This document shows, piece by piece, positions 1,700 to 48,245 of a stretch of 64,000 nt of DNA (positions within the stretch are counted from its first letter, which is position 1; each line of letters starts with the position of its first letter). The notes beneath the pieces are model-generated. The model was not told the origin of the DNA, searched no databases, and worked only from the letters and a program-made list of their open reading frames with translations. This DNA is from a virus. Taxonomy: Duplodnaviria; Heunggongvirae; Uroviricota; Caudoviricetes. Where the stretch lies: positions 23,495 through 87,494 of IMG/VR virus record IMGVR_UViG_3300025597_000613; one strand, written 5' to 3'. A program made the position numbers and the translations under genes.

Positions 1700-2298
1700 G
1701 TTTTGCGCCCAGGATAGAATGGTTTGAAGAAACGGTGGTTCTCGATAATTGCCACTTGGGTATATTGTCGAGTCCATTGCGGATAAATGTATCCTTTTTC
1801 TTTCATGACTTTGTCCGCGACGTAATGCGTCGCACCCTGCGTAGGATCAGCAATTGTACGCTGGTATACAGCCCTTGCAACGCGCAGAGACTGCTGCCAG
1901 CCCGCTTGGTCAATGACATTTTTTTGTCGCGGCTCGACCTTCAGGCTCATTGCTGCCATCCGAAGAGTGGGATTATCATTGAAGACACTGTATTGTTTGG
2001 GTGCAAGCACTACGTCACAGATAGGCTTCTTCGTTGCACGATTCATAGCAGTCCACGCCACTGCAATCATTCCGTGTTCGGGTTCGCCACGAGCCTCACC
2101 GTAGACCATGGTGGCCAGACACTTAACTTCCTTGTCGGCCTTCTTTGCGTCATTGATAGAGATGAAGCCACGGCCAGCGCCGGCCTCGCCTTCTACAAAA
2201 TGGACGGCCGTTGATTTTGCTTTACCAATATGCGGCATATGCACGCCAGCATCACAGGCAACAAGGGCCAAAGGTAGGAATAGGAGTACAGCTCTCAT
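1696..2298 (-). CDS. SleB/CwlJ-family cell wall hydrolase, predicted lipoprotein
   Basis: MVYGEARGEPEHGMIAVAWTAMNRA matches SleB/Hydrolase_2 hallmark (EARGE...NR); N-terminal signal with lipobox LVAC; AGGAG 3 nt upstream of ATG. Confidence 0.6.
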   Translation of the reverse strand: MRAVLLFLPLALVACDAGVHMPHIGKAKSTAVHFVEGEAGAGRGFISINDAKKADKEVKCLATMVYGEARGEPEHGMIAVAWTAMNRATKKPICDVVLAPKQYSVFNDNPTLRMAAMSLKVEPRQKNVIDQAGWQQSLRVARAVYQRTIADPTQGATHYVADKVMKEKGYIYPQWTRQYTQVAIIENHRFFKPFYPGRKT

Positions 2299-3553: not shown

Positions 3554-3629
3554 TGGTAGACCGCCAGGGGGTCGAACCCTGTCCTAACGATTATGAGTCG
3601 TTTGCTATTACCAACTTAGCTCGCAGTCC
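3554..3629 (-). tRNA. tRNA-Met (anticodon CAT), 76 nt, CCA encoded
   Basis: hand-folded cloverleaf: acceptor GGACTGC/GCGGTCT (two G-U), D arm GCTA-AGTTGGTAA-TAGC, anticodon arm AACGA-CTCATAA-TCGTT, T arm CAGGG-TTCGACC-CCCTG, discriminator A + CCA. Confidence 0.8.
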
Positions 3630-5298: not shown

Positions 5299-5373
5299 TG
5301 GTCCGGCGTAGAGGAATCGAACCTCTATCAGCGGATTAGAAGTCCGCGGTTCTGTCCGTTGAACTAACGCCAG
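5299..5373 (-). tRNA. tRNA-Arg (anticodon TCT), 75 nt, CCA encoded
   Basis: hand-folded: acceptor CTGGCGT/ACGCCGG, D arm GTTC-AACGGACA-GAAC, anticodon arm GCGGA-CTTCTAA-TCCGC, T arm AGAGG-TTCGATT-CCTCT, discriminator A + CCA. Confidence 0.8.
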
Positions 5374-12577: not shown

Positions 12578-12771
12578 ATATTGTCGCCAAATTTTAATGA
12601 TAATAGAGTGTATTCTTCTTCGGAAATTCTTAGATGGTAATACTTATAAAGCCTATTATCTGGATATCCCGAACCTACCGTCTGATCCCTTATAATTTGA
12701 AACTCGGCACTAACCAGACTTTCGATATATTTAGATTCAGATTTATCAACAGTGAGATTTGCTTCAATCAT
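12565..12771 (-). CDS. hypothetical protein (68 aa)
   Basis: minus-strand ORF. Confidence 0.35.
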   Translation of the reverse strand: MIEANLTVDKSESKYIESLVSAEFQIIRDQTVGSGYPDNRLYKYYHLRISEEEYTLLSLKFGDNIWLR

Positions 12772-13577
12772 AGATCTTTATACAGTTTTACCATGTCTGG
12801 AATGCGCGTCTTGGCATTGCGACTACCAAGCAGGATCATGAATCTTTGACCGGCCGGAGAATCGACCAACATAACAAGACAGCCACCGGCTGGATTTGTG
12901 TATCCTGTCTTCGATAAAAGAATATGCAAAGTGTTGGTCAGAGGATTAGTATTCTTGACCTTGATTGTTTTCTTCTCGGCAGCAATTTCTGCCTTCGGGA
13001 GACTAGAAAGTTGGGTAATTACTTCATTATTGGATGCAACAATCATCAGTTTTAGAAGATCAACCGCGGTGCTAGTATTTTCCCTGCTCAGGCCAGTAGG
13101 TTCAACAAAAGTGGTGTGTTCCATGCCGAGTTCTGCAGCCTTTGCGTTCATAGACTCAACGCAATTGGGCAGATTCTCACAAAGAATCTGTGCGGCAAAA
13201 TTGTCGGATTTAACAAGGGCAAGAGTCAGTAATTCACGACGAGATAGCTTATCAAGCTTTTTCGGAATGCTGCTTTGAACAGAGCGGGTAGAGGGAATAG
13301 GAAGTGACTCATCCAAATCTTGTTCTGCCGTAAGAAGAGCCACCATCAACTTACTAATTGATGCAATGGGGCGAACCTGGTCACTTTCTTTTTCCTTTAG
13401 CACCGTACCATCACGGTCAGCAATGAGGAAGCTCTGTGCAGAAAAAGGTACAGGTGCAACAGGTCTTGATTTCTTTCGTGCCTCGGCATGACCTGCAAAG
13501 GCCAGGGCCATACACGCAATGAGGAGTAGCTTCTTCATAGATTTATGTATTTTAGCACTGATGTAATAGATTTGCAA
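12768..13577 (-). CDS. secreted serine D-Ala-D-Ala carboxypeptidase / PBP-beta-lactamase-fold protein
   Basis: signal peptide MKKLLLIACMALAFAGHA; active-site triad SISK (SxxK), SDN, KTG in canonical order and spacing. Confidence 0.65.
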   Translation of the reverse strand: MQIYYISAKIHKSMKKLLLIACMALAFAGHAEARKKSRPVAPVPFSAQSFLIADRDGTVLKEKESDQVRPIASISKLMVALLTAEQDLDESLPIPSTRSVQSSIPKKLDKLSRRELLTLALVKSDNFAAQILCENLPNCVESMNAKAAELGMEHTTFVEPTGLSRENTSTAVDLLKLMIVASNNEVITQLSSLPKAEIAAEKKTIKVKNTNPLTNTLHILLSKTGYTNPAGGCLVMLVDSPAGQRFMILLGSRNAKTRIPDMVKLYKDL

Positions 13578-19062: not shown

Positions 19063-20265
19063 TTATCGACGCTTCGGGGAATGACTATCCGGCTCGTACC
19101 AGGCAGTCATACCAAACGGTGCAACCAACCGATGAGACGGGTCACCGTGAATCAGGAACAGGGTGTCGCAATAATTCTCATCACCCCAGCTACCACAAGG
19201 ATAACCGTCCGTCATCATAATGAATCGTTCAGGTTGCAGGTCCTTAGACTTCATGAACTCCCAATTACACATGAAATCGGTGCCACCGCCACCGGCCAGC
19301 GGATACTCATTGATTTCTTCGAGATTTTCCGGAGTGTACTTGATATGGTTGTACACGCGAGTATCGAAGCACCAAACATCCAGCTCAAAGTCCATGAACT
19401 GTTCCATAATGCCCTTAGTTTCGCCGAGCAAATCGCGCAGCATATCTTCAGACATAGAACCCGACGCATCGATGGAGACAGCGGCCTTGACCTTGAAGTC
19501 ATTCTTGGTAGCAGGCAGATAGATGCCCGAGGCCTGCATCTTACGCGAGCAACGATCCCAGGTAAAATCGCTCTTCACCATCGATTGAATCTTCATGTTA
19601 AGAATCTCGCGCCAGTCCATCTGCGGCTCGGTGAGATCCTTCAGCATGCGGCGCACACCGGCAGGGGTATTACCGGCACCGGATGCCTTCGCAGCCTGCA
19701 TCACAGCATTGCGAATTTCGTCACGCAGCGCGGCAACTTCTTCGGCCGACATGGGTTCACCACGACCATCACCGGAGCCGGGCTCAAGGTGGATGTCGAA
19801 CTCGGGGAAGTTTTGGTTCGGATCCTTCATCAGCAGTTCGTAGACTTCTTCAGCGAACATGCCCTTGTACTTTTCATCGATACAACCTTGCACACCCGAA
19901 GTCTTCGGATTCGGCATCTTACCGATGCGGTGCTCACTCAGTTCCAGATTGATAACGAAGTCGGCTGCCGCGTTCCACATCTTCGGCTTACGCTCACCAC
20001 GACGGTTCATGTGATCGTAGACACAGTGTTCCACTTCGTGCGCAACAAGGAAGATGGTCTCTTGTTTATCGAGTTTGGAGATGAAATCACGGTTGTAGTA
20101 GAAATAGCGACCGTCCGTACCGGCGGTCTTACACCAGTCTTCATCAGTCGCATCCTTGAGGATCAGGCGCGTGGCCAGCGTACCCCAAAACGGTTGCTGA
20201 AGGAGAAGGGAAATACGAGCGCGGGTGAGTTGCTCAAGAACGGCTGCGGGACTGTTATCTGCCAT
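19063..20265 (-). CDS. VWA-domain protein with N-terminal HExxH metallopeptidase-like domain (DUF2201-like, MoxR partner)
   Basis: HEVEHCVYDH (HExxH); MIDAS motif DASGSMS; start set at ATG preceded by AGAGG. Confidence 0.7.
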   Translation of the reverse strand: MADNSPAAVLEQLTRARISLLLQQPFWGTLATRLILKDATDEDWCKTAGTDGRYFYYNRDFISKLDKQETIFLVAHEVEHCVYDHMNRRGERKPKMWNAAADFVINLELSEHRIGKMPNPKTSGVQGCIDEKYKGMFAEEVYELLMKDPNQNFPEFDIHLEPGSGDGRGEPMSAEEVAALRDEIRNAVMQAAKASGAGNTPAGVRRMLKDLTEPQMDWREILNMKIQSMVKSDFTWDRCSRKMQASGIYLPATKNDFKVKAAVSIDASGSMSEDMLRDLLGETKGIMEQFMDFELDVWCFDTRVYNHIKYTPENLEEINEYPLAGGGGTDFMCNWEFMKSKDLQPERFIMMTDGYPCGSWGDENYCDTLFLIHGDPSHRLVAPFGMTAWYEPDSHSPKRR

Positions 20266-20331
20266 TGTAGACCTCTTAGTTGATGTTTGTATTTTAGTAG
20301 GATGTTGCGTAATGGTCAACCAGTTGCACCA

Positions 20332-20578: not shown

Positions 20579-20779
20579 TTATCCCCACGCACCAGGCATT
20601 TCCTCTTCTCTGGTCATAGCCTGGATAAATGTGGTCATATTGCCGATGTTATGAGAGGCCACGCCGCCCTGTAATACCCACCCTAATGCAAGGTAGGCAT
20701 TGACAGCATTCTCTAAAAGGGCGATAGTATCACCCCTTACAATCATGTACTCTTTCGACATCGGCATATTGTTCTCCAT
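20579..20779 (-). CDS. hypothetical protein (66 aa)
   Basis: minus-strand ORF bracketed by two similar hairpins. Confidence 0.35.
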   Translation of the reverse strand: MENNMPMSKEYMIVRGDTIALLENAVNAYLALGWVLQGGVASHNIGNMTTFIQAMTREEEMPGAWG

Positions 20780-20780
20780 A

Positions 20781-20800
20781 GATAGGGACTTGAGCCCCTA
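20781..20800 (-). terminator. hairpin ATAGGG-ACTTGAGC-CCCTAT (variant of the 20523 hairpin)
   Basis: inverted repeat just downstream of AAA ATPase gene. Confidence 0.35.
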
Positions 20801-20804
20801 TCCA

Positions 20805-21896
20805 TCAGTCTTCCAGGATGTACTTACCGTACTTCTCGTGGAACTGCTTGAACGCCTTCAGCTCGCGGTGGTTAATCAGTTCCACGTAGTCGCGCAGTGC
20901 GGTCTTAGCACCCAGGACGATCATCTCGGTCTGGAAGTTAGCCATCATGTACACGAAGAAGTTATCCACGCATTCATGCCACGCCTTCATATCGAAGCCG
21001 TCTTCCTTCGCCTTCGCCTTCGCGGTCCATTCCTGGAGCGTATAGCACATGGAGATGGTCAGCGAATACATGGCGCTCAGATCCTTGACGTTCAGATCCT
21101 TGACCTTACCCACCAGCACATCTTCCGGCTTCGGCATCTTGGCCGCAACACGACGGTGAGCAGCGAACTCGGTAGCCAGACCGTCACCAACGGTACCGGC
21201 GACCAGCGTCGTATTCAGCGATTCCGGCAGCTCGTCACCAATCAGCTGCGAAACGAATGCCCACGAACGCGGAGTAGCGAACGCCTTGTCCGGGCTCTTC
21301 GGATCGAAGTTGAAGAGCTTTTGCTTGTGGTGCGACAGGAAGCCCACGACGTCCGGATGGACCTTGGCACCAATCGCCCACTTCTGCCAGTCTTCGAAGT
21401 TAGCACCCATCTCGATGTGAACCAGACGGTTGGCCAGCGGGCTGGGCATACGGTAGGTAACACCCTTGTCGCTATCACGGTTGCCCGCGCACACCATCGA
21501 CACACCCTTCGGCAGCTTGTATTCGCCAACACGACGGTTCAGGATCAGCTGGTAGGCCGCAGCTTGCACGCTCGGCGGAGCAGCGTTGATTTCGTCCAGG
21601 AACAGGATTGCATTTTCCAGGAACGTGTCGGTCGGCAGGTCAGCCGGTTGCGCCCACTTCATCGTCTTCGATTCCGGATCAAAATACGGAATACCCTTGA
21701 TGTCGGTCGGTTCCAGCAGAAGCAGACGCATGTCGATAACGGGACGACCAGTCTCTTCGCCGATCTCGGCAATCAGTTCCGACTTGCCAATGCCCGGAGG
21801 GCCCCAGATCATCGCAGGGCGGCCAACCTTCATGCAACGGGTCAGCAGGGTTCGAACGTCGCGCGGACGGCTGGGATCACGGGTGGAATTGCTCAT
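20805..21896 (-). CDS. MoxR/CobS-like AAA+ ATPase
   Basis: Walker A GPPGIGKS; Walker B ILFLDEIN; ~360 aa single AAA module typical of MoxR/CobS family. Confidence 0.8.
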   Translation of the reverse strand: MSNSTRDPSRPRDVRTLLTRCMKVGRPAMIWGPPGIGKSELIAEIGEETGRPVIDMRLLLLEPTDIKGIPYFDPESKTMKWAQPADLPTDTFLENAILFLDEINAAPPSVQAAAYQLILNRRVGEYKLPKGVSMVCAGNRDSDKGVTYRMPSPLANRLVHIEMGANFEDWQKWAIGAKVHPDVVGFLSHHKQKLFNFDPKSPDKAFATPRSWAFVSQLIGDELPESLNTTLVAGTVGDGLATEFAAHRRVAAKMPKPEDVLVGKVKDLNVKDLSAMYSLTISMCYTLQEWTAKAKAKEDGFDMKAWHECVDNFFVYMMANFQTEMIVLGAKTALRDYVELINHRELKAFKQFHEKYGKYILED

Positions 21897-21956
21897 GTAA
21901 AGTTCTCCTTGGTTGGTTGGGTTGAGCTAAAAACGTATGTCACTATTATGTATGTG

Positions 21957-22355
21957 TTATGCAATGGCGTCAATTGGCTTAGACTGATTCTTGAATGTCA
22001 TGCCACCAAAGGTAAGCGTGAACAACAAACAATCTTCCTCGTTCACAAAGAAGAAATCAAAATAATCAAATAGTTGACTCCAAATCCAGTTATCTCCGAA
22101 TTTTTCATTGCACCATTTTGCCATGTTGTTGAACTCGTCGTCGCTTACTTGGTTTATATCGAATCTAATGCCGGGAAATTTATTTTGAAGTTTTACCTTA
22201 TTCACAGTTGTGAATTCTCCAAGCCCAAAGGATTGAAATTTTATTTTCAAATTCTCCAGAGTGGGACCGTTGAGTGCTACCATAATATTTGGTCGTATGA
22301 TTGCAATTCCAAGACTAACGTAAGATTCTTTGAGGAATAAACCACCATCGGTCAT
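21957..22355 (-). CDS. hypothetical protein (start at internal ATG, ATGA overlap with upstream gene)
   Basis: ORF 21957..22421; ATG at 22355 preceded by AAGG. Confidence 0.4.
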   Translation of the reverse strand: MTDGGLFLKESYVSLGIAIIRPNIMVALNGPTLENLKIKFQSFGLGEFTTVNKVKLQNKFPGIRFDINQVSDDEFNNMAKWCNEKFGDNWIWSQLFDYFDFFFVNEEDCLLFTLTFGGMTFKNQSKPIDAIA

Positions 22356-23606: not shown

Positions 23607-23953
23607 TCCTTAATAATTTCCATCACGGCTTTAGTGCTAATTCCGAGAGCAATAGCTTTGCTATGCAGACGATGGGCAACATCATAATGCCGCTTATGTG
23701 CATGGCCCGACCACATATGTTTACCCTTTTCCATCTCATATTCCCAACCACATGCATCGACATGACTGGCATGGCAGAATTTTTGATGATGGATAATAGC
23801 AAGTTTTTCGATATCACTAAGTGAATCAAAATATTCATCCTGTGATCGCAATCTTTGAATTTCTGCCTTGATTTGTTCGGCATGATCTTCTAATTTCTTA
23901 ATCTTGTCTTGGTTAGGAGTCATAATAGTTCCTAAAGAAAATAGGGGCAACAT
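23600..23953 (-). CDS. hypothetical His-rich protein (117 aa)
   Basis: HHQKFCHASHVDACGWEY...HMWSGHAHKRH, possible metal binding. Confidence 0.4.
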   Translation of the reverse strand: MLPLFSLGTIMTPNQDKIKKLEDHAEQIKAEIQRLRSQDEYFDSLSDIEKLAIIHHQKFCHASHVDACGWEYEMEKGKHMWSGHAHKRHYDVAHRLHSKAIALGISTKAVMEIIKDC

Positions 23954-23968
23954 TACTGTTACCCCTAT
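23938..23968 (-). terminator. hairpin AATAGGGG-N14-CCCCTATT
   Basis: 8-bp inverted repeat downstream of gene 24000..24629. Confidence 0.3.
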
Positions 23969-23999
23969 TATAAGCCCTTATGGGCGGCAGTCAATTGGT

Positions 24000-24629
24000 T
24001 TAGAAGAAAGCTCCACCAAGTGCCACAGTGAGGACAGTCAGGCCAATCATCACCCAGAATGCCAGCCATTCACCGTCGGTCTTTAGGTCCTGGATAGACT
24101 TAGGAACACGAACCAGCTTGGTACCGGAGATTGCACCCCAGAGATAGCTATACGGGACTTCCTTCATTTCCTTGGTGAAGAGTCGCTTGTAGACAACACG
24201 AACCATGGTAAGGCCTACCACCACAAACAGAGTGCCGTACATCATCTTCAGGATAGTCGTGCCCGCAACCTTCCAAATAATGACAATTGCGGTCAGGATA
24301 CCTGCCGGGCTCTTCAGGAAATCATTGATAGTCACATTCAGTTCTTTTGCAGCAATTCCGAGTGCCTTAGCGAAACCTTCGGCAGCCGCTGCAAGCTGAT
24401 TGCCCCAGGTTGCAGCAAGAGTCACACCGGCCGTAATCGATTCAGGCTTCACTTCCGCCTTAGGCGAAGCTACCTGAGCAGCGGTTTCAGCCACCTTCTT
24501 TGCAGCAATTGCCTTCAGTTCGGCAATTTGTGCCTCAGAGAGGCCCGAAGTATCGACGGTGGTTTGACCGGCAAATGAAGCCATAGCACAGAATGCCAGG
24601 GCAAAGGACGCAATTACTTTACGAAACAT
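24000..24629 (-). CDS. membrane/secreted protein (start at ATG with AGAGG SD)
   Basis: signal-like N-terminus MFRKVIASFALAFCAMASFA; C-terminal TM helices. Confidence 0.45.
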   Translation of the reverse strand: MFRKVIASFALAFCAMASFAGQTTVDTSGLSEAQIAELKAIAAKKVAETAAQVASPKAEVKPESITAGVTLAATWGNQLAAAAEGFAKALGIAAKELNVTINDFLKSPAGILTAIVIIWKVAGTTILKMMYGTLFVVVGLTMVRVVYKRLFTKEMKEVPYSYLWGAISGTKLVRVPKSIQDLKTDGEWLAFWVMIGLTVLTVALGGAFF

Positions 24630-24834
24630 GGTTACCTCTTTGGTTGAATGTTGAACTCTTATATACGTTGATATGCGGAAGACCGTACTTATCATTCAGC
24701 TTTTCGCAAAGCTGTAAAGCATCATCCATCGTACCACAACGAGTTCGGATACCGTCGAACATAGCGTAATGTGCGTCGGAACCAATCCATTGATAGTACG
24801 CAGATTTATATTTCTGATCAAGTGGTTTCAGCAT
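24619..24834 (-). CDS. hypothetical small protein
   Basis: ORF 24619..24984 trimmed to internal ATG; upstream part is Arg/Ser-rich and overlaps the AAA gene. Confidence 0.25.
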   Translation of the reverse strand: MLKPLDQKYKSAYYQWIGSDAHYAMFDGIRTRCGTMDDALQLCEKLNDKYGLPHINVYKSSTFNQRGNHVS

Positions 24835-24865
24835 ATCAACATTGTAAGGCAATATGCCCTCGGCG

Positions 24866-25960
24866 TCAATAGACGTAATCCTGCCAGTTCTTCTTTTCTG
24901 CCTTTTCCTTGCTGAAGACAACAACCGCGACATCCGGCGTGCCTTCGTTGAGGACGTAAGTGAAAGTACCCTTCTCAACGTCAATTGCCTTCAGGTAACG
25001 CTGATCCACATCCAGGGTGAAGGAAGTTTCCTCTTCGGTATCTTCTCCATTGCCATTGGGGTCGGTATCAATCCAAAGATTGATAGTATTGTGCATCATC
25101 GGATTACCACGGAAGGAATCAGGATTGACATGTTCAGGTCCGAATTCTTTGCCCTTTGCCATCACCTTGACATCATAGGTAGTATAACTACCTTGGACGA
25201 AGGGTTTGACGTTAAGCATTTCCAGTGCCTGTTGCGGGCTTTCGTTGTATCGATTCATTTCTTCGACAAGAGCCTTCAGCATGTCAAAGTTGATACTATC
25301 AAAGACCATGGTAAGGCGCACCACCGATTCGAGGTATTCCTTATTCAGAAGATTGTCTTCGCAGTAGCTACGAATGAAATCAGCCTCAAGTCCCTTATAT
25401 TCCAGGGCGTAGAAAATTCGACCCGGTCGATTAGTCATATTGCTGTTGATGCGACCACGATCGTTGGAAGTAAGCACAAACAGAGTCTTCGAAGGATAAA
25501 CACCATCAAGGAGAGTCAGCAGGGCTTCCTGGTCCTTCTCACTGTATACCTTCTCGAATTCATCAAAAACAACAACTTTCGGTTCAGTAATATCTTGGAT
25601 GAATTTATTGAAGGCGTCGCCATTGAAGGAATTATTGACGATAATGGTAGGAATACCACGCTCGGCCGCCTTACGGGTTACCAGTTTAGCAAGGAGGGTC
25701 TTGCCCGAGCCTTTTTCGCCATTCAGGAGCACACCAGTGCTTGCAGGACGAGAAAGGAAAGTATCAAGGATTCGATCGGCCTGACGCGGGGAATTACCGT
25801 AGATCTTACCGGTGATATCAAAGTCCTTGGTTTCAGTCAGAAAAAATCCCTCCAAGCTGACATTGACCATATAGGTGCCGACCGGAAGACCGTCACGAAT
25901 ATCGTATGCACCAGGTTGGGTAATAAAGAGATTTTCGCCTCGCTTAAGGAAGTGTGTCAT
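24866..25960 (-). CDS. AAA-family ATPase
   Basis: Walker A GEKGSGKT; Walker B VVVFDEFE; the antisense 421-aa plus-strand ORF was rejected. Confidence 0.65.
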   Translation of the reverse strand: MTHFLKRGENLFITQPGAYDIRDGLPVGTYMVNVSLEGFFLTETKDFDITGKIYGNSPRQADRILDTFLSRPASTGVLLNGEKGSGKTLLAKLVTRKAAERGIPTIIVNNSFNGDAFNKFIQDITEPKVVVFDEFEKVYSEKDQEALLTLLDGVYPSKTLFVLTSNDRGRINSNMTNRPGRIFYALEYKGLEADFIRSYCEDNLLNKEYLESVVRLTMVFDSINFDMLKALVEEMNRYNESPQQALEMLNVKPFVQGSYTTYDVKVMAKGKEFGPEHVNPDSFRGNPMMHNTINLWIDTDPNGNGEDTEEETSFTLDVDQRYLKAIDVEKGTFTYVLNEGTPDVAVVVFSKEKAEKKNWQDYVY

Positions 25961-25976
25961 AGTTTTCTTTCAAAAG

Positions 25977-26210
25977 TTATTTGTGTGCTTGAAGATAGGT
26001 GCGAACCCAGGTCGCAATATTGTCGCTGTCGGTATAGAATCGAAGTTCGTTTCCATTCATACCGACAGCTTCAAAAATGTATTCGTCTGTCGAATAATTG
26101 TTTTTCAGAGATTTTTTAAAGTCGGCAAGTTCCTCAACAACATAAAGGCTCAGACGACCGAGGTCCCAGCCATATTTTGCCTTACGTGATTTCAATTCTC
26201 TTGAGTACAT
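25977..26210 (-). CDS. hypothetical protein (77 aa)
   Basis: minus-strand ORF. Confidence 0.4.
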   Translation of the reverse strand: MYSRELKSRKAKYGWDLGRLSLYVVEELADFKKSLKNNYSTDEYIFEAVGMNGNELRFYTDSDNIATWVRTYLQAHK

Positions 26211-26211
26211 A

Positions 26212-26733
26212 TTACAGAGTGGTTACGGTTGAATCAGGGAGCCAGAGAGTGACAGGAAAATCCATTGTCTCCTCAATAATGGTAGAGATAATTTTCCAAT
26301 TGCCGCCGCCACGAGCGGCACCAATCATAGGAATATGAACTTCTGCTGGCGCAAAGACAACGTCCTTATTTCCCTCGAAAAGGGTGTTGGATGCCTTTGC
26401 TTCTTCAATTTCTGCGATGTATTCATTTACAGCCTCGAAGCAGGTCGCAATTGCTTCATAGGATGTATGGCGATTTCCTGCCCCGTAGGAATCTTGCGTA
26501 ATTGCATTCCAAACAATCAGCCCTTCGGCAGCCAGCACCGGGTATGCTCTACCAAGCACAAGTCCATCTTCGCCATAGATTTGACGATAATTTTGGTACA
26601 CATGTGGCCAGGTGTTTTTCACGCCCAGGGCCACGCCGGATCCCATTACACCTTGTGCATTGCATCCGTGAACAATGTGTCCTTGTTTCACATGCAACAG
26701 ATTACCGGTTTTGACAACAATGGTAGTAGTCAT
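26212..26733 (-). CDS. macro-domain protein (ADP-ribose binding/hydrolase-like)
   Basis: IVHGCNAQGVMGSGVALGVK matches macro-domain N-A-x-N ... G-G-G-V signature; AAGGA SD before ATG at 26733. Confidence 0.7.
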   Translation of the reverse strand: MTTTIVVKTGNLLHVKQGHIVHGCNAQGVMGSGVALGVKNTWPHVYQNYRQIYGEDGLVLGRAYPVLAAEGLIVWNAITQDSYGAGNRHTSYEAIATCFEAVNEYIAEIEEAKASNTLFEGNKDVVFAPAEVHIPMIGAARGGGNWKIISTIIEETMDFPVTLWLPDSTVTTL

Positions 26734-26734
26734 T

Positions 26735-26983
26735 TTATTCCTTAGTAGCCACAATTATATATTGCTTTATTAGTTCTTGCAACTCGGTAATTACCTTTTT
26801 ATTCGTTTCCCGTTCGGTGTCAATCATCTCGAGAATTTGGGATTCTGGGGACCTGGAACTAAAGTAATCAATCGGGTATCTTTTCTCTAATTCGTTTAGG
26901 AGAAAACAATATCTACCTAACGGTGTTCCTGGACCCGAATCTCTAGCTTTAGATAATCGCTGAAGGGCTGTTCTCCGCTTCAT
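26735..26983 (-). CDS. hypothetical protein (ATGA overlap with upstream gene)
   Basis: internal ATG at 26983. Confidence 0.35.
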   Translation of the reverse strand: MKRRTALQRLSKARDSGPGTPLGRYCFLLNELEKRYPIDYFSSRSPESQILEMIDTERETNKKVITELQELIKQYIIVATKE

Positions 26984-27252
26984 TTTCTTTCGTGTGGCTG
27001 GTGGCAAAACACACAATTATCGTAAGCCGGATCTTCAAAACGTTCATAGGCACAGAATCCAAAAGGGGAATCCTCACATTCCCATTCTCCTACCTGCATT
27101 CCAATAGGCAATAAGCCCATTTGTTCAAAGATTGGATCTGTCAAGCCATTAATTTTATCGTATGCCGTGGTAATTTTATTTTTCTCTTTCCTAACAGCAT
27201 TCATCAATGCAACCCTCGAACCAAGTTTGAGGGCGAGCTTATCTTCACTCAT
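26980..27252 (-). CDS. hypothetical protein (90 aa)
   Basis: minus-strand ORF. Confidence 0.4.
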   Translation of the reverse strand: MSEDKLALKLGSRVALMNAVRKEKNKITTAYDKINGLTDPIFEQMGLLPIGMQVGEWECEDSPFGFCAYERFEDPAYDNCVFCHQPHERK

Positions 27253-27673
27253 CTTTCATCTCGATTTTTACACAGTATTTTCCAAGGTGCGATTTCACAG
27301 CATGTTTGATAAATCCATCCGGTTGATCTCTTCGGTACATTTTTCGTTCTCGAAGATAGTCGGTGATAAAAACAATAGTTCCAATAATTGCAGCAACAAT
27401 GGAGACAACACCAAGTGTGATTAGAAAAACCATGCCGATGGGATTAATAAGCCAGAATCCGGTAAAAATCCAAAAGCCAATTGCCATCAATACATCAACC
27501 ACCATACAGGCCAACAAGGTATAGGTCGCGAGGCAAATTAATGCCACGAGTGATGCCTTCAGGAAAGACTTGGTATAGGTACAGATATCAGTAGTATCTG
27601 AGATAAAATCATCGGTGAAGAGAGATATCAACTGATAATGCCAACTTTTTCTACTAAACTCTAGTGTGTTCAT
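27245..27673 (-). CDS. multi-pass membrane protein
   Basis: ATG at 27673 preceded by GGAG; 3-4 TM helices. Confidence 0.4.
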   Translation of the reverse strand: MNTLEFSRKSWHYQLISLFTDDFISDTTDICTYTKSFLKASLVALICLATYTLLACMVVDVLMAIGFWIFTGFWLINPIGMVFLITLGVVSIVAAIIGTIVFITDYLRERKMYRRDQPDGFIKHAVKSHLGKYCVKIEMKDE

Positions 27674-33928: not shown

Positions 33929-35122
33929 TTAACCCTTCACGCAGAGTACCTGCTTCAGTGTATGCACGATTTCCACAAGATCAGATTGTGCTGCCATTAC
34001 TTCATCAATGTCTTTGTAAGCACCGGGAATTTCATCCAGCACAGCATCATCTTTTCTGCATTCAACACCAGCAGTCTGTTCTGCCAAATCGAGCGAAGTG
34101 AACAATTTCTTCGCTTGATTGCGGCTATGCTTTCTGCCAGCACCGTGAGAGCAAGAGCAATAGGATTCGGCATTTCCCTTACCACGAACGATAAAGGATT
34201 TTGCACCCATCGAGCCAGGAATAATACCCATTTCGCCATAGCGTGCAGATACAGCACCCTTTCGAGTTACCCAAATACCTTGCTCACCGTGTTCTTCCCA
34301 CGAGGTGAAATTATGATGACAGTTGACAACTTCCCCCACAATTTTCATGGAAGGGAAACGAGTCTTCATCGCTGCCAACACCAGATTCATCATGGTGTCT
34401 CTATTCATACGGGCATAATCTTGAGCCCAATGCATAGCTTCAATATAGGAATCGAATTCCGGGGTGCCTTCGTCGAGCCAAGCAAGATCTTGGTCAGCAA
34501 GGCCCCAGGCACGCTTAATTGCCTGTTCCTTGGCCATTTCAATAGCCACGGTACCAATTTGGTTGCCAATACCGCGGCTGCCCGAATGTAGCATAATCCA
34601 GACACGATTCTCAGTATCAAGACAGATTTCGATAAAGTGGTTACCGCCACCAAGTGTCCCAACCTGACGACCAATACGATGTTCATCGGCACGTCCAAGC
34701 TTTGCCTTAAGTGCCAGCGAATCCCAACGCTTCATCACCTTAACAAGGTTCTTACGAAGAACATCGGCGTAGGGTCCCGATACGGCAGGAATGCCAGCCT
34801 TATGCTCATTGAAGCCGACAGGTACATCACGCTCGATTTGGTTGCGGATCGCAAACAAGGATTCCGGAAGATCGTCAGCAGTCAGGCTGGTCATCACGGC
34901 GCACATTCCGCAACCAATATCGACACCGACGGCTGCAGGAATGATTGCATTGCGAGTAGGAATAACAGAACCAACAGTGGCTCCCTTACCCATGTGAACG
35001 TCCGGCATAATGGCAATATGCCCTGCCAGAATCGGTAGAGTGGAGATGTTGGTGATTTGTGTAACGGCAGCCTCTTCGACCTCCATTGCACCAACCCACA
35101 TCTTTACATTTTGAATTTCCAT
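33929..35122 (-). CDS. rtcB: RtcB-family RNA ligase (3'-phosphate/2',3'-cyclic phosphate to 5'-OH)
   Basis: MPDVHMGKGATVGSVI, GGGNHFIE, SGSRGIGNQ, NCHHNF, CSHGAGRK cover all conserved RtcB metal/GTP-binding blocks; GAGGT SD confirmed. Confidence 0.9.
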   Translation of the reverse strand: MEIQNVKMWVGAMEVEEAAVTQITNISTLPILAGHIAIMPDVHMGKGATVGSVIPTRNAIIPAAVGVDIGCGMCAVMTSLTADDLPESLFAIRNQIERDVPVGFNEHKAGIPAVSGPYADVLRKNLVKVMKRWDSLALKAKLGRADEHRIGRQVGTLGGGNHFIEICLDTENRVWIMLHSGSRGIGNQIGTVAIEMAKEQAIKRAWGLADQDLAWLDEGTPEFDSYIEAMHWAQDYARMNRDTMMNLVLAAMKTRFPSMKIVGEVVNCHHNFTSWEEHGEQGIWVTRKGAVSARYGEMGIIPGSMGAKSFIVRGKGNAESYCSCSHGAGRKHSRNQAKKLFTSLDLAEQTAGVECRKDDAVLDEIPGAYKDIDEVMAAQSDLVEIVHTLKQVLCVKG

Positions 35123-35641: not shown

Positions 35642-35880
35642 TTTATTGCCTTTAATTTTCTAAGTGTCCTTTGTTGATCATATTGTTCCATAACTTCCTT
35701 AATCAGGAATTTAAAACAAGATGTCCAACCTGAACCATCGGGGTTACGCGGGATTTCTCCACTCAAAAATGAGTGAGCGATGGGTATTACTCTTTCATTT
35801 TCCCAGACAGCAATCCAAGAGAGTGCATCCAACAGGGTTGGTTCTTCGCACGCTCTATCGATTGCTTCTTGGAAGTTCAT
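35638..35880 (-). CDS. hypothetical protein (80 aa) within the RNA-repair cassette
   Basis: 4-nt overlaps on both sides. Confidence 0.4.
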   Translation of the reverse strand: MNFQEAIDRACEEPTLLDALSWIAVWENERVIPIAHSFLSGEIPRNPDGSGWTSCFKFLIKEVMEQYDQQRTLRKLKAIK

Positions 35881-36842
35881 GCTTGTACGATTTCAATAAC
35901 ACGCGGTGCATGTACCTTCGGAAGATCTGCGCCACAGGATTTACGAGTCAGTTCCGGATGGTTCTTGGCGTAGTCTTGCACATACCAAAGCTGACCACAA
36001 CCACCACCAATATCATCCTGACCTGCAGGATCAAAGCAACGAGTAGAAAAACCACGCTCCAACATTAAACCCATGAAATCGGTGGCCAAAGCACGTTGGC
36101 GCTCATTTGCAGCAGCAACAGATTCATCCTGTTCGCAAACAACTGACACAGTGGATTGCCAAATCCTTGGATCAAACAGGCCAAACAGGCGATCAGCATC
36201 GGCAGCCGATGAATTATCGGCATGGGCGCAATAGTTAAAGAAAGGTTGGCGGCCGGTGGCCATAAACCACAGCATACCTTCTTCTGCAATTCTTTGCAGA
36301 TTGAGCTTGGCTTTGAAAGGGATCAATCTATCGCGTGCTTCGTCAGTGCTTTCATGTACGCTAAATTGCAGACCGACAGTGGGAATTTCCACAGAGATAT
36401 CCCTGACCCACTGATAATCCACATCGGGTGCGGAAGTGCTGATAAGCAATGCAGCAGTCGGATACAATGCATGCAGTTTTCTCAGCGCATCGGTAAGACC
36501 CTGTTTATTCAGCAAGGGCTCACCCATGGACATGAACATGATCTGAGTACGCTTCACCTTGGATTGATCGATATTCTGATCAGCAAACAGATGTTGCACC
36601 TGTGCAACAATTTCATCTCCCGTCAAACTACGGATAAAGAATTCACCAGTGCCGCAGAATCTGCATCCAACCGGGCAACCCGATTGAGTGCTGCAACAGA
36701 TGACCGTACGATCTTCGTAGGTTGGATACTTATACAACACCGCTTCTGCAACCGCGGCGCGTTCTTTCTCGTTGGTAAACACATACTTACGGACGTTTTG
36801 ATCCGAGCTTGGAATACAGCGAACACTTTCCCATTGATTCAT
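35877..36842 (-). CDS. RlmN/Cfr-family radical SAM RNA methyltransferase
   Basis: CPVGCRFC (Cx3Cx2C); MGEPLLN, ISTSAP and C-terminal GGGCGQL align with RlmN blocks (MGEPLLN, LSTSG, ACGQL catalytic Cys). Confidence 0.75.
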   Translation of the reverse strand: MNQWESVRCIPSSDQNVRKYVFTNEKERAAVAEAVLYKYPTYEDRTVICCSTQSGCPVGCRFCGTGEFFIRSLTGDEIVAQVQHLFADQNIDQSKVKRTQIMFMSMGEPLLNKQGLTDALRKLHALYPTAALLISTSAPDVDYQWVRDISVEIPTVGLQFSVHESTDEARDRLIPFKAKLNLQRIAEEGMLWFMATGRQPFFNYCAHADNSSAADADRLFGLFDPRIWQSTVSVVCEQDESVAAANERQRALATDFMGLMLERGFSTRCFDPAGQDDIGGGCGQLWYVQDYAKNHPELTRKSCGADLPKVHAPRVIEIVQA

Positions 36843-47135: not shown

Positions 47136-47370
47136 CTACTTTTATATATTTTCTAAAATCGTATTTCCACATAGGATACGATAATACATATCCTGTCCAA
47201 CCCTCGTCTGTAAATATAAAATACAGATAATGTTCAATGCTTCCCTCTTCTGTCCAATCTATATAGATTTCTTCTGCCCAGGTTCTCACAGTTTCGTCAA
47301 TATACCTGAAAGATTTTTCGAGAGATTTTTGGTCTCTCGGGTTATAGGGACCGCATTTGTATATAATCAT
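47023..47370 (-). CDS. hypothetical protein (start trimmed to ATG abutting QueE stop)
   Basis: ORF 47023..47427 in a different frame from 46899..47135; frameshift or sequencing error possible. Confidence 0.3.
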   Translation of the reverse strand: MIIYKCGPYNPRDQKSLEKSFRYIDETVRTWAEEIYIDWTEEGSIEHYLYFIFTDEGWTGYVLSYPMWKYDFRKYIKVDAVLESAETLPRISVENSSGPEGRNFLCHGDDVVVQK

Positions 47371-48245
47371 GCAAGGCTTGCGTACAGATGCATTTGAAGA
47401 TTGAGTCTTAGTCCGTGCTGAATACAATACTTCGCAGTGTATTCGTGATTTTCTTGATTAGCCTTCAGATTAAGAAGACCTGGTTCCCAGAAACTAATTA
47501 CTTCATCTACAGTTGATCTTTCATCTAATGTGATATTACCTTGCTTTTCAGAACGCAATAGCTTGATCTTCTGAGGGAAAGTATTGTAGATGTTCATGGG
47601 GCTGACATAGATTTCTTTCTTAGGATTGCTGAGTCTCCATTCAAGTGCCCAATCAGGAATGGTGTTGTATGGATTGCCAGGTTCAGCAGTCATAACAAAT
47701 TTCAAACAGTCCGCACGTTCAAGAATAGTTTTTGATGGTGCAAGATACTTTACCGCTACACCATTCTTTTCTACACACTTTGGGCTGCATACAAGTGTAA
47801 CACCCGCCGGAACGGTAGTATCAAGAATACCATTGCTCTCAACCTGTACTGCACCAAAATGCTCCAACTGTCTCTGCATGAATGCACTAATATTATCCTG
47901 TAGCAATGGTTCGCCACCCGTCATAACAAGTACCACTCCTGGATAGTTATTGAAACCATTTACGGCCCAGGTAGGTGCAGATTCACCTTTGTCATTCCAG
48001 AAGTTGCAAATTGTTTCATACATTTTACTTTCTATCTGGGTGGTATTTAACCAGTCACCATCATCGAAGAATGTATCACAGAAACTGCAATCAAGATTAC
48101 ATTTTGCTAATCTAATAAACAATGCAACTTTTCCAGCGTGTGGGCCTTCGCCCTGCAATGTGAAAAACATACTTGTTACAAAAAGACTATCGGCGGGTGC
48201 ATCCTTAAAGAATTTCTTGCCTACAATTTCATTGGTACCAAACAT
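47367..48245 (-). CDS. queE: 7-carboxy-7-deazaguanine synthase QueE (radical SAM)
   Basis: FFTLQGEGPHAGKVALFIRLAKCNLDCSFCDT aligns with the QueE N-terminal signature (TLQGEG...FIRL.GC..C..CDT). Confidence 0.85.
   Translation of the reverse strand: MFGTNEIVGKKFFKDAPADSLFVTSMFFTLQGEGPHAGKVALFIRLAKCNLDCSFCDTFFDDGDWLNTTQIESKMYETICNFWNDKGESAPTWAVNGFNNYPGVVLVMTGGEPLLQDNISAFMQRQLEHFGAVQVESNGILDTTVPAGVTLVCSPKCVEKNGVAVKYLAPSKTILERADCLKFVMTAEPGNPYNTIPDWALEWRLSNPKKEIYVSPMNIYNTFPQKIKLLRSEKQGNITLDERSTVDEVISFWEPGLLNLKANQENHEYTAKYCIQHGLRLNLQMHLYASLA

What the first reader, a model, noticed from the sequence alone, without database searches (positions are those of the whole stretch)
24866..26733. Macro-domain protein next to an AAA ATPase
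26212..26733 has the macro-domain signature (HGCNAQGVMGSGVALGVK). Macro domains bind or hydrolyse ADP-ribose, and in phages could reverse ADP-ribosylation of DNA or protein imposed by host toxins such as DarT, or process NAD-derived immune signals. It lies one small ORF away from a Walker A/B ATPase (24866..25960) of unknown role.
Basis: partly seen in the sequence, partly recalled or inferred. Interest (0 to 1): 0.55.

Follow-up and report, generated by a model that had tools for sequence, protein, structure and literature searches.

The report
Phage macrodomain hydrolase beside separable ATPase
An uncultivated giant phage carries a small enzyme of a known phage family that removes or trims ADP-ribose to undo bacterial immune chemistry, and the ATPase next to it is a frequent but dispensable neighbour, so the finding is real but mostly ordinary.

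Summary
26212..26733(-) encodes a 173-aa macrodomain protein, 25977..26210(-) a 77-aa ORF, and 24866..25960(-) a 364-aa classical AAA+ ATPase.

The macrodomain belongs to the DarG/TARG1/SCO6735/Poa1p ('ALC1-like') class, not the MacroD/Af1521 class. It keeps His22, Asn25, Gln80 and both ADP-ribose loops. It falls in PHROG 335, whose tested relatives are T4 Tk.4/AdfM (anti-DarTG2) and Vibrio phage Gary Adpp (an ADPR-1''-phosphate phosphatase that counters aRES). PhiKZ AdfM is a further tested phage macrodomain.

Sequence cannot decide between these two activities. I slightly favour removal of ADP-ribose from DNA, because no NARP1 gene lies in the window.

The ATPase is not an obligate partner:
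- Close relatives keep macro, 77-aa ORF and membrane protein without the ATPase.
- Most ATPase homologues have no macro gene nearby.
- Even so, this ATPase family sits beside three different macrodomain subtypes.
- In another lineage it sits directly after NMNAT-Nudix > macro > NAMPT. This NAD+/ADP-ribose neighbourhood was not in the papers I searched.

Verdict: a new member of a known kind, of modest interest.

The parts
26212..26733 (-). Gene for a 173-aa stand-alone macrodomain protein of the ALC1-like / DarG-TARG1-SCO6735-Poa1p class (PHROG 335)
   Evidence: ORF and translation. PHROG 335 at 1.7e-36. Profile hits to PDB entries. AlphaFold2 model and Foldseek matches. An identical 173-aa gene call in metagenomes.
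26629..26670 (-). ADP-ribose binding loop 1, H22-G-C-N25-A-Q-G-V-M-G-S-G-V-A. H22 corresponds to Adpp H24 and Poa1p H23. N25 corresponds to the conserved Asn of DarG/AdfM.
   Evidence: H22, G23, C24, N25, A26 and G28-A35 are invariant, and Q27 nearly so, in 42 homologues. Alignment to relatives. An Adpp H24A mutant was made, and the Adpp mutations abolish anti-aRES activity. Mutation of the conserved Asn reduces PhiKZ AdfM activity.
26494..26496 (-). Gln80, at the position of SCO6735 Gln85, TARG1 Lys84 and DarG Lys80
   Evidence: Invariant in the subfamily. Alignments. SCO6735 Q85A is inactive.
26296..26331 (-). Diphosphate-binding loop 2, P135-M-I-G-A-A-R141-G-G-G-N-W. R141 is invariant in the 42-sequence alignment of homologues (>=57% identical to the window protein). 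TARG1 Asp125 aligns with G142.
25977..26210 (-). 77-aa ORF with no family match, packed tightly between the macro and ATPase genes. It is conserved after the macro gene in some relatives, including ones that lack the ATPase.
   Evidence: No Pfam, PHROG, NCBIfam or PADLOC hit. Gene junctions. tblastn hits in L003, L094, L103, L104 and L108.
24866..25960 (-). Gene for a 364-aa classical-clade AAA+ ATPase (PHROG 2376). It has an N-terminal beta domain, an AAA core at about residues 57-250, and a C-terminal beta-rich domain.
24000..24695 (-). 231-aa predicted membrane protein (PHROG 19575), the conserved downstream neighbour. In relatives without the ATPase it directly follows the macro gene or the 77-aa ORF.
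   Evidence: PHROG hit. tblastn across loci. Cluster c23.
23940..23969 (-). Terminator-like hairpin with a 13-bp stem, a possible end of the co-directional gene string (weak evidence)
   Evidence: Consensus scan. The number of terminator-like sites in the region is not above the shuffled expectation.

Best explanation
The 173-aa ORF is a catalytically competent, stand-alone macrodomain hydrolase of the DarG/TARG1/SCO6735/Poa1p class. It comes from an uncultivated jumbo phage with a genome of roughly 360-385 kb. It belongs to the widespread phage family (PHROG 335) whose tested relatives are counter-defence enzymes.

Proposed mechanism. The fold is shown; the chemistry is inferred. ADP-ribose binds between loop 1 (H22...N25...G-S-G) and loop 2 (P135...G-G-G). 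The enzyme then hydrolyses whatever is attached to C1'' of the distal ribose. Gln80 positions that ribose, as Gln85 does in SCO6735.

The physiological substrate I consider most likely is thymidine-linked ADP-ribose placed on phage single-stranded DNA by host DarT2. That would make the protein an orphan 'antitoxin', like T4 Tk.4/AdfM and PhiKZ AdfM.

The AAA+ ATPase one ORF downstream is a separate accessory gene. It often travels with ADP-ribose and NAD+ genes but is not needed by the macrodomain. I put the class assignment and the counter-defence role at about 0.9. The confidence figure given applies to the specific DNA substrate.
For: Class assignment:
- Profile hits to BT1257 (6e-16), SCO6735 (1.6e-11), Thermus DarG (1.8e-11), M. 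tuberculosis DarG (1.6e-9) and Poa1p (2.7e-6), with no MacroD or Af1521 hit at E <= 0.01.
- Foldseek top hits are DarG, SCO6735, Poa1p and BT1257.
- The best NCBIfam model is DarG.
- The PADLOC DarG score is 54.7 bits, above T4 AdfM at 36 bits.

Residues: H22, N25 and Q80 and both loops are invariant in 42 homologues. They align with residues shown to matter in Adpp, AdfM and SCO6735.

Family function:
- A tk.4 knockout sensitises T4 to DarTG2.
- PhiKZ AdfM removes DarT2 ADP-ribose from DNA.
- SCO6735, one of the closest characterised proteins, cleaves thymidine-linked ADP-ribose on DNA.

Context:
- The gene is stand-alone, as Tk.4 is in T4.
- tblastn finds no Adps, Namat, Nampt or Nmnat in the 64-kb window.
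- The same window carries an Acb1 anti-CBASS homologue, so this phage does carry counter-defence enzymes.

ATPase separability:
- 8 of 18 close macro loci lack the ATPase, although 3 of these sit on short contigs or close to a contig end.
- L102 and L104 keep macro and membrane protein (L104 also the 77-aa ORF) with no ATPase between them.
- 60 of 85 ATPase loci have no macro gene within the sequence fetched.
Against: - No assay was done.
- The closest phage relatives with informative context are macro genes embedded in NARP1 operons of Vibrio phages RYC and 1.063.O (30% identity, E about 1e-16). T4 Tk.4 is more distant (27%, about 1e-8).
- In sister lineages the macro gene at the ATPase locus sits inside NARP2 operons.
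- The protein is acidic (pI 5.25, net charge -7). The DNA-acting DarG, SCO6735 and TARG1 domains are basic (pI 8.5-9.8). T4 Tk.4 is also acidic, however.
- Tk.4 and Adpp are 35% identical to each other, so the two reported activities are not separated by sequence.
- The catalytic Lys of DarG and TARG1 is replaced by Gln.
- The neighbour-joining tree that places this subfamily next to SCO6735/BT1257 is crude.
Confidence: 0.45

Rival explanations
1. Adpp-like role. The macrodomain acts on soluble ADP-ribose derivatives. Chiefly it would dephosphorylate ADPR-1''-phosphate, made by RES-type NAD+ phosphorylases such as aRES, to ADPR. The ADPR would then feed a NAD+ reconstitution pathway or a Nudix ADPR pyrophosphatase encoded elsewhere in the roughly 370-kb genome.
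For: - Gary Adpp is a Poa1p-like macrodomain that converts ADPR-1P to ADPR, and its H24 (our H22) was mutated.
- The nearest phage homologues outside the subfamily lie inside NARP1 operons.
- 11 of 62 more distant macro loci have NARP1 or NARP2 genes within 8 kb.
- About 12 ATPase loci show NMNAT-Nudix > macro > NAMPT > ATPase.
- In Serratia phage BF and phage 121Q the macro gene lies 1.3 kb from a NudE-like Nudix gene.
- The protein is acidic, like most phage family members.
- The loop-2 arginine R141 is shared with the RYC-type NARP1 macro proteins.
- Iyer et al. 2021 predicted this role for jumbo-phage macrodomains.
Against: - No Adps, Namat, Nampt or Nmnat is present in the 64-kb window.
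- None is present in 733 kb of polymerase-anchored loci from the same lineage.
- In the published model the phosphatase helps only together with NARP1.
- Poa1p is a weaker match than DarG or SCO6735.
- Only one Adpp has been tested biochemically.
Confidence: 0.3
2. The macrodomain, the 77-aa ORF and the AAA+ ATPase work together as one module. For example, the ATPase could remodel or unfold a host ADP-ribosyltransferase or NADase, or an ADP-ribosylated target, while the macrodomain removes the mark.
For: - The genes are tightly packed and co-directional.
- Macro is the commonest genuine neighbour of this ATPase family: 25 of 85 loci, always on the same strand.
- All 13 members of the window's ATPase clade have a macro gene upstream; it is directly adjacent in 12 and about 3 kb away in L009.
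- Three different macro subtypes sit beside the ATPase: the window's type, the Adpp/Tk.4/phi92 type and a DarG-like type.
- phi92 and Microbacterium phage Pumpernickel also keep the two genes within 1-2 kb.
- Control loci anchored on the DNA polymerase have no macro gene in 733 kb.
Against: - Both genes occur widely without the other.
- Close relatives differ by presence or absence of the ATPase between the 77-aa ORF, or the macro gene, and the membrane protein.
- Gene order is reversed in phi92 and Pumpernickel.
- The validated relatives Tk.4, PhiKZ AdfM and Adpp need no ATPase.
- The loci are phylogenetically related, so the counts are not independent events.
- The ATPase fold matches are generic.
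Confidence: 0.15
3. Housekeeping or self-directed role. The macrodomain would clear ADP-ribose by-products of RNA repair, like Poa1p after Tpt1 in tRNA splicing. Alternatively it would reverse protein or RNA ADP-ribosylation, either by the phage's own ADP-ribosyltransferases or by a host mRNA-modifying toxin.
For: - RtcB lies 7 kb upstream in the window.
- In Pumpernickel RtcB lies two genes from the macro gene.
- Poa1p is a structural match.
- SCO6735 also removes ADP-ribose from proteins.
Against: - From my own knowledge of these enzymes: RtcB joins 3'-phosphate and 5'-OH ends directly, so it leaves no 2'-phosphate. No Tpt1 step and no Appr>p by-product would therefore be expected.
- The Pfam and PHROG scans covered about 45 of the window's ORFs, mostly the larger ones, and found no Tpt1/KptA or ADP-ribosyltransferase.
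- The RtcB linkage is loose.
Confidence: 0.07
4. A non-catalytic reader or sponge. The protein would only bind ADP-ribose-containing immune signals and sequester them.
For: Some macrodomains only bind their ligand, and phage sponges for ADPR-derived signals exist (abstracts listed).
Against: Every residue whose mutation impairs activity in relatives is invariant in the subfamily (H22, N25, Q80). The closest characterised homologues are all enzymes.
Confidence: 0.03

Closest known systems
T4 Tk.4 = AdfM (anti-DarT factor, macrodomain; HIDEN-SEQ preprint 10.1101/2025.11.20.689424) and PhiKZ gp104 AdfM (PMC13309987)
   Same: Both are small, stand-alone phage macrodomains of the DarG-like class. 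The window protein shares the H-G-C-N and G-S-G loop 1, a Gln at the DarG Lys80 position (as in Tk.4) and the G-x-G-x-G-G loop 2. Tk.4 is 27% identical, E = 2e-10. Like Tk.4 in T4, the gene has no NAD+ salvage genes around it.
   Different: The window protein falls in a different subfamily, which a rough neighbour-joining tree places nearer SCO6735/BT1257. It has 'GAARGGG' with an invariant Arg141 in loop 2, where Tk.4 has 'GAGIGKG'. It was not compared directly with PhiKZ gp104. Anti-DarT2 activity is untested.
Adpp, the ADPR-1''-phosphate phosphatase of NARP1-AP (Vibrio phage Gary gp182; preprint 10.64898/2026.01.28.702374)
   Same: Both hit PADLOC's DarG model, and Adpp is 35% identical to Tk.4. 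The functionally required His is conserved (Adpp H24 = H22 here). The NARP1-embedded macro proteins of Vibrio phages RYC and 1.063.O are the nearest phage relatives outside the subfamily, at 30% identity.
   Different: The gene is not inside or next to a NARP1 operon, and no Adps or Namat is in the window. It is only 22% identical to the Gary Adpp that was actually tested.
SCO6735 (Streptomyces coelicolor; PDB 5E3B) and BT1257 (PDB 2FG1)
   Same: These are the best sequence matches among solved structures. Gln replaces the catalytic Lys (SCO6735 Q85 = Q80 here), and the TARG1-type Asp is absent. SCO6735 removes thymidine-linked ADP-ribose from DNA.
   Different: They are cellular and basic proteins (pI about 9-10), whereas the phage protein has pI 5.25. 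The loop after the Gln lacks the two lysines (SCO6735 K89 and K94) reported to aid DNA binding and instead has a conserved Arg88. Identity is 27-29%.
DarG antitoxin of DarTG2 (PDB 5M31, 5M3E, 5M3I)
   Same: Same macrodomain class and top structural match. Loop 1 is strongly similar: G-V-M-G-K-G-V-A in DarG against G-V-M-G-S-G-V-A here.
   Different: There is no C-terminal DarT-binding domain and no adjacent darT gene. The NCBIfam DarG score is 48.5 bits against a cut-off of 250. Lys80 is replaced by Gln, and DarG has Asn where this protein has His22.
Yeast Poa1p (PDB 6LFQ), an ADP-ribose-1''-phosphate phosphatase
   Same: Structural match with TM about 0.70. Poa1p His23 corresponds to H22 here; this correspondence rests on the PDB mutant names together with my recollection of the Poa1p sequence.
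   Different: It is the weakest of the class matches, at 2.7e-6, and only the N-terminal half aligns. It acts in eukaryotic tRNA splicing.
PHROG 2376 ATPases (phi92 gp190, Pumpernickel gp160) and classical AAA+ modules (p97/Cdc48 D2, NSF D2, YjoB, Bcs1)
   Different: No member of the phage family has a known function. The N-terminal beta domain and the C-terminal beta-rich domain of about 110 aa have no identified relative.

Membership tests
Macro domain superfamily (Pfam PF01661) | Score above the Pfam gathering threshold | tested here: not met
   18 bits against a cut-off of 22 for the window protein. Many homologues at 57-67% identity do carry a precomputed PF01661 hit. Tk.4, Adpp, phi92 gp185 and the Pumpernickel protein all pass.
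Macro domain superfamily (Pfam PF01661) | Three-layer alpha/beta/alpha macro fold | tested here: met
   AlphaFold2 model with pLDDT 83.8 and pTM 0.82. Foldseek gives probability 1.00 and TM-scores of 0.63-0.76 to DarG, SCO6735, Poa1p and BT1257, and 162 PDB matches at E <= 1e-3.
Macro domain superfamily (Pfam PF01661) | The two ADP-ribose/diphosphate-binding glycine-rich loops | tested here: met
   H22-GCNAQGVMGSGVA and P135-MIGAARGGGNW. Most of their residues (loop 1 apart from Q27; I137-A139 and R141-G144 in loop 2) are invariant in 42 homologues, and both loops align to the loops of DarG, SCO6735 and TARG1.
ALC1-like macrodomain class (TARG1/DarG/SCO6735/Poa1p) | Closest sequence and structure relatives lie in this class rather than the MacroD type | tested here: met
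   All ten profile hits at E <= 0.01 are BT1257, SCO6735, DarG, an unnamed macro-domain protein (7OMU) or Poa1p. No MacroD, Af1521 or YmdB hit appears. The Foldseek ranking agrees.
ALC1-like macrodomain class (TARG1/DarG/SCO6735/Poa1p) | Catalytic Lys (TARG1 K84, DarG K80) and TARG1 Asp125 | tested here: not met
   Gln80 and Gly142 occupy these positions. The same substitution pattern occurs in the active enzyme SCO6735, where Q85 is essential, and in Tk.4 and Adpp.
DarG antitoxin (type II TA DarTG2) | Macrodomain plus a C-terminal DarT-binding domain, encoded next to darT | tested here: not met
   The protein is 173 aa with a macrodomain only. The NCBIfam DarG score is 48.5 bits against 250, matching only model positions 1-60. 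The neighbours are a small ORF and an ATPase.
AdfM (phage orphan anti-DarT2 macrodomain) | Stand-alone phage macrodomain homologous to Tk.4 or DarG2, with the conserved catalytic-site Asn | tested here: met
   27% identity to Tk.4, E = 2e-10. PADLOC DarG 54.7 bits. N25 is invariant. The Asn requirement comes from the PhiKZ AdfM work.
AdfM (phage orphan anti-DarT2 macrodomain) | Removes DarT2-installed ADP-ribose from ssDNA and protects the phage from DarTG2 | not testable with these tools
   This needs a biochemical assay or an infection assay.
Adpp (NARP1-AP phosphatase) | Macro gene within two genes of Adps and Namat | tested here: not met
   tblastn with Gary Adps and Namat, and with NAMPT and NMNAT representatives, finds nothing in the 64-kb window at E <= 1e-2.
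Adpp (NARP1-AP phosphatase) | Conserved His (Gary H24, Poa1p H23) required for function | tested here: met
   H22 is invariant and aligns with Adpp H24. The H24A mutant is listed.
Adpp (NARP1-AP phosphatase) | Converts ADPR-1''-phosphate to ADPR | not testable with these tools
   This needs an LC-MS assay.
MacroD/Af1521-type macrodomains | Sequence or profile similarity to MacroD, YmdB or Af1521 with their catalytic motifs | tested here: not met
   No such hit at E <= 0.01 in the profile search. YmdB appears only at Foldseek rank 49-50.
Classical AAA+ ATPase (Pfam PF00004), for the neighbouring gene | Walker A, Walker B, sensor-1 and second-region-of-homology arginines, with a score above the Pfam threshold | tested here: met

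The most novel reading that the evidence does not exclude
The PHROG 2376 AAA+ ATPase may be a so-far unrecognised component of phage NAD+/ADP-ribose counter-defence.

It repeatedly sits on the same strand directly after NMNAT-Nudix > macro > NAMPT (a NARP2 operon with an embedded macro gene). It also sits directly after macro genes of three different subtypes. One possibility is that it remodels or unfolds host NADase or ADP-ribosyltransferase effectors while the neighbouring enzymes repair the chemical damage.

A related possibility is that the window's macro subfamily has a substrate that is neither DarT2-modified DNA nor ADPR-1''-phosphate, such as another ADPR-derived immune signal. That subfamily is acidic, has the invariant Arg141 in loop 2 and falls below the Pfam threshold.
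Probability: 0.15. Interest if true: 0.65.

Novelty: new member of a known kind. Interest (0 to 1): 0.33.

Why it matters
Phage macrodomains have only recently been shown to defeat bacterial immunity. AdfM acts against DarTG2 and Adpp against aRES.

This gene adds a divergent, abundant subfamily from uncultivated jumbo phages. At least 1,756 database homologues were found. Its substrate would show whether the DNA-repair and NAD+-salvage activities are separable within one fold.

The by-product of this check is more useful than the gene itself. One AAA+ ATPase family is a recurrent neighbour of macro genes and of NAMPT/NMNAT-Nudix genes in several phage lineages. That gives a concrete, testable lead to a function for an ATPase found in many large phages, phi92-like coliphages included. 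It also points to macro genes embedded in NARP2 operons, which I did not find described.

Tried and rejected
- Nucleotide similarity. Megablast of 24000..27300 against 50,697 phage records found nothing. The phage has no close cultured relative; its DNA polymerase is only 40-43% identical to Phosso, Atu_ph07 and Serratia BF.
- Pfam alone would have rejected the domain, at 18 bits against a cut-off of 22. Profile and structure evidence overrule this.
- A search of the window for NARP1 and NARP2 genes was negative. Pfam and PHROG scans of about 45 of the window's ORFs, mostly the larger ones, found no Nudix, Sir2, ADP-ribosyltransferase or Tpt1.
- I considered an RtcB/Tpt1-type RNA-repair link and ranked it low, because RtcB ligation leaves no 2'-phosphate (this rests on my own knowledge).
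- The promoter and terminator scan was not above the shuffled expectation.
- I tried net charge and pI as a discriminator between DNA and small-molecule substrates. It is inconclusive, because the genetically validated Tk.4 is acidic too.
- ATPase structure search gave only generic AAA+ and STAND-like matches, and no clue to the terminal domains. PADLOC and NCBIfam gave only weak P-loop hits.
- An early idea was that the ATPase is a conserved anchor next to a variable island. In this lineage it is contradicted by the presence or absence of the ATPase itself.
- The neighbour-joining trees are distance-based, have no support values, and should be read only coarsely.
Full report
**What is there.**
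All genes in this part of the window run on the minus strand. ORF 26212..26733 encodes 173 aa. Its ATG follows an AAGGA ribosome-binding site and the stop codon of the upstream ORF. A 77-aa ORF (25977..26210) starts 2 nt after the macro stop codon. The 364-aa ATPase ORF (24866..25960) starts 16 nt after the stop of the small ORF. Independent gene calls on four metagenome contigs carrying the identical ATPase give the same three products. The described anatomy is therefore correct.

**Is the macrodomain real?**
Pfam Macro scores only 18 bits, below its cut-off of 22, so the family model alone would not accept the protein. Other evidence is strong:
- PHROG 335 ('phosphatase'), E = 1.7e-36.
- phmmer hits to BT1257, SCO6735, both DarG macrodomains and Poa1p.
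- A profile of 42 homologues hits the same structures: BT1257 at 6e-16, SCO6735 at 1.6e-11, Thermus DarG at 1.8e-11, M. tuberculosis DarG at 1.6e-9 and Poa1p at 2.7e-6. It returns no MacroD or Af1521-type entry.
- An AlphaFold2 model (pLDDT 83.8) matches DarG, SCO6735, Poa1p and BT1257 first, with Foldseek probability 1.00 and TM-scores of 0.63-0.76.

The protein is a macrodomain of the DarG/TARG1/SCO6735/Poa1p ('ALC1-like') class. This class naming follows the SCO6735 paper read.

**Catalytic residues.**
H22, N25, Q80 and most residues of both ADP-ribose-binding loops (H22...A35 and P135...W146) are invariant in the 42 homologues.
- Q80 aligns with SCO6735 Gln85, TARG1 Lys84 and DarG Lys80. 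TARG1 Asp125 aligns with Gly142. SCO6735 Q85A is inactive although that enzyme lacks the Lys/Asp pair.
- H22 aligns with Adpp His24, which was mutated to test Adpp function.
- N25 aligns with the conserved Asn of DarG/AdfM, whose mutation lowers PhiKZ AdfM activity.

One subfamily-specific feature is an invariant Arg141 in loop 2 ('GAARGGG', where relatives have 'GCGLAGG'). Among the sequences compared, only the NARP1-linked macro proteins of Vibrio phages RYC and 1.063.O share it.

**What is known about the family.**
Three recent reports cover phage members or close relatives.
- T4 tk.4 was the single HIDEN-SEQ hit needed on a DarTG2 host. It was renamed adfM.
- PhiKZ gp104, also named AdfM, removes DarT2-installed ADP-ribose from DNA.
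- The macro gene between Adps and Namat in Vibrio phage Gary, named Adpp, converts ADPR-1''-phosphate to ADPR. This lets NARP1 overcome the aRES defence.

Tk.4 and Gary Adpp are 35% identical to each other, E = 2e-23. The window protein is 27% identical to Tk.4 and 22% to Gary Adpp. It is 30% identical to the NARP1-embedded macro proteins of Vibrio phages RYC and 1.063.O, and 27-29% to SCO6735 and BT1257. All three phage proteins hit PADLOC's DarG model: the window protein at 54.7 bits, Adpp at 44.6 and Tk.4 at 36. Homology therefore fixes the class and the counter-defence theme, but not the substrate.

**Which substrate?**
Points favouring removal of ADP-ribose from DNA:
- The best characterised matches, SCO6735 and DarG, act on thymidine-linked ADP-ribose.
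- The gene is stand-alone, as Tk.4 is in T4.
- The 64-kb window holds no Adps, Namat, Nampt or Nmnat, and the published benefit of Adpp depends on NARP1.

Points favouring a soluble ADPR derivative:
- The nearest phage relatives with informative context sit inside NARP1 operons.
- Relatives at the equivalent locus sit inside NARP2 operons.
- In Serratia phage BF and phage 121Q the macro gene is 1.3 kb from a NudE-like Nudix gene.
- The protein is acidic (pI 5.25), whereas DarG, SCO6735 and TARG1 are basic. Tk.4 is also acidic, which weakens this point.

My estimates are about 0.45 for the AdfM-like reading, 0.30 for the Adpp-like reading and the remainder for other readings. The two activities may coexist in one enzyme.

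**The ATPase.**
It is a classical-clade AAA+ protein.
- Pfam AAA scores 39.3 bits, with p97/Cdc48 D2-type hits.
- Walker A, Walker B, sensor-1 and an R-P-G-R motif are conserved across several phage lineages.
- Its N-terminal beta domain and C-terminal beta-rich domain match nothing informative.
- It belongs to PHROG 2376. Cultured homologues occur in phi92-like coliphages (35% identity) and Microbacterium phage Pumpernickel (48.5%).

**Is the adjacency meaningful?**
I fetched 80 IMG/VR loci anchored on ATPase homologues and clustered the ORFs on the ATPase strand within 7 kb.
- Macro is the commonest genuine neighbour family: 25 of 85 loci, always on the same strand.
- NAMPT occurs in 22 loci and NMNAT-Nudix in 18. 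Together these are the NARP2 genes, confirmed by Pfam. They lie just upstream of the ATPase.
- About 12 loci read NMNAT-Nudix > macro > NAMPT > ATPase.
- Of 64 loci with at least 4 kb of upstream sequence, 30 have a macro gene or NAMPT.
- A control set of 54 loci (733 kb) anchored on the DNA polymerase of the same jumbo lineage has no macro gene, no NAD+ gene and no ATPase.
- Macro genes of three different subtypes sit beside this ATPase family: the window's own type, the Adpp/Tk.4/phi92 type (39-49% identical to the phiAbaA1 macro, only 25-33% to the window protein) and a DarG-like type in Pumpernickel. The first two types are interleaved on the ATPase tree.
- phi92 keeps a Tk.4-like macro gene (28% identity, E = 4e-14) 2 kb downstream of its ATPase. 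The genes between them include a HAD hydrolase and a ComF-like PRTase.

**Evidence against an obligate pair.**
- 60 of 85 ATPase loci have no macro gene in the sequence fetched.
- Among 18 macro loci at least 50% identical to the window protein, 8 lack the ATPase, although three of these lie on short contigs or near a contig end. None of the 62 loci at 35-45% identity has it.
- L104 reads macro > 77-aa ORF > membrane protein, and L102 reads macro > membrane protein. The ATPase is simply missing from both.
- The validated relatives work without such an ATPase.

My reading is that the ATPase is a separable accessory gene. It shares a neighbourhood, and possibly a theme, with ADP-ribose and NAD+ counter-defence genes. 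A functional module remains possible at about 0.15. The counts are not phylogenetically independent, and the trees are simple neighbour-joining trees.

**Genome context.**
- The DNA polymerase is 76-90% identical across most of the matching IMG/VR contigs, four of which are 360-385 kb long. It is only 40-43% identical to cultured jumbo phages such as Phosso, Atu_ph07 and Serratia BF.
- The window itself has no megablast match.
- The identical ATPase occurs on a 239-kb contig.
- The window also encodes an Acb1 anti-CBASS homologue, RtcB, a MoxR-type ATPase with a DUF2201 partner, peptide deformylase, two radical-SAM proteins, and DHH and metallophosphoesterase-type phosphoesterases.

This is the auxiliary, counter-defence-rich part of a jumbo phage genome. 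That matches what Iyer et al. described for jumbo-phage Macro, NADAR and Nudix genes.

**Verdict.**
The macrodomain is a new, divergent member of an already characterised kind of phage counter-defence enzyme, and its exact substrate is undecided. The ATPase has no demonstrated link to it. Its recurrent placement next to macro and NARP2 genes is a modestly novel lead worth one experiment.

Noticed in passing
window 56331..56789 (-): A 152-aa ORF matches Pfam Acb1 (anti-CBASS 2H phosphodiesterase) at 61.1 bits against a cut-off of 27. This is a second likely counter-defence enzyme in the same window.
   Followed up: no
L018, L024, L041, L046, L056, L065, L076, L081, L088 (IMG/VR loci anchored on ATPase homologues): A macro gene of the Adpp/Tk.4 type is embedded between NMNAT-Nudix and NAMPT (NARP2 genes) and is followed directly by the PHROG 2376 ATPase. 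L081 has no NMNAT-Nudix in the sequence fetched. I found no description of macro genes in NARP2 operons in the papers searched.
   Followed up: partly
L001 7153..7605 (Microbacterium phage Pumpernickel gene 167, NC_073468.1 96347..96799): This gene is annotated 'ADP-ribosyltransferase' but is a macrodomain: Pfam Macro scores 29.4 bits (cut-off 22), and its best match in my set is Thermus DarG. It is probably misannotated. It lies 1 kb from the ATPase homologue and two genes from RtcB, amid tRNA genes.
   Followed up: partly
window 20805..21896 (-) and 19063..20319 (-): A MoxR-type AAA_5 ATPase (PHROG 1297) is followed by a DUF2201/DUF2201_N protein. PHROGs labels the latter 'HNH endonuclease', which looks like a mislabel. 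This is a second, unrelated ATPase pair 3 kb downstream of the finding, and it is syntenic in all close relatives.
   Followed up: no
window 24854..26119 (+), 20700..22073 (+), 19081..20283 (+): Long ORFs of 400-457 aa run antisense across the ATPase, MoxR and DUF2201 genes. They are most likely shadow ORFs, since no independent gene call supports them.
   Followed up: partly
window 33929..35122 (-), 35877..36842 (-), 47367..48245 (-): An RtcB RNA ligase (PHROG 1075, E = 2.4e-144) and two weak radical-SAM-like ORFs lie upstream of the finding. RtcB is also near the ATPase and macro genes in Pumpernickel.
   Followed up: partly
L002 6572..10321 (phage phi92 gp187-gp182): phi92 places its Tk.4-like macro gene immediately after a HAD hydrolase and a ComF-like PRTase (PF15610), with a TerC membrane protein three genes downstream. 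This is a different metabolic context from NARP1 or NARP2.
   Followed up: no
L102, L104 versus the window (24866..25960): Close relatives differ by presence or absence of the ATPase gene between the 77-aa ORF (or the macro gene) and the 231-aa membrane protein. The ATPase is therefore itself an accessory gene in this lineage.
   Followed up: partly
window 50733..51248 (-), 12768..13577 (-), 1696..2298 (-), 57788..58630 (-): Other auxiliary genes are present: peptide deformylase (176.7 bits), an S11 D-Ala-D-Ala carboxypeptidase (123 bits), a cell-wall hydrolase, and a weak DHH/DHHA1 phosphoesterase. tRNA-Met and tRNA-Arg lie at 3554..3629 and 5299..5373.
   Followed up: no
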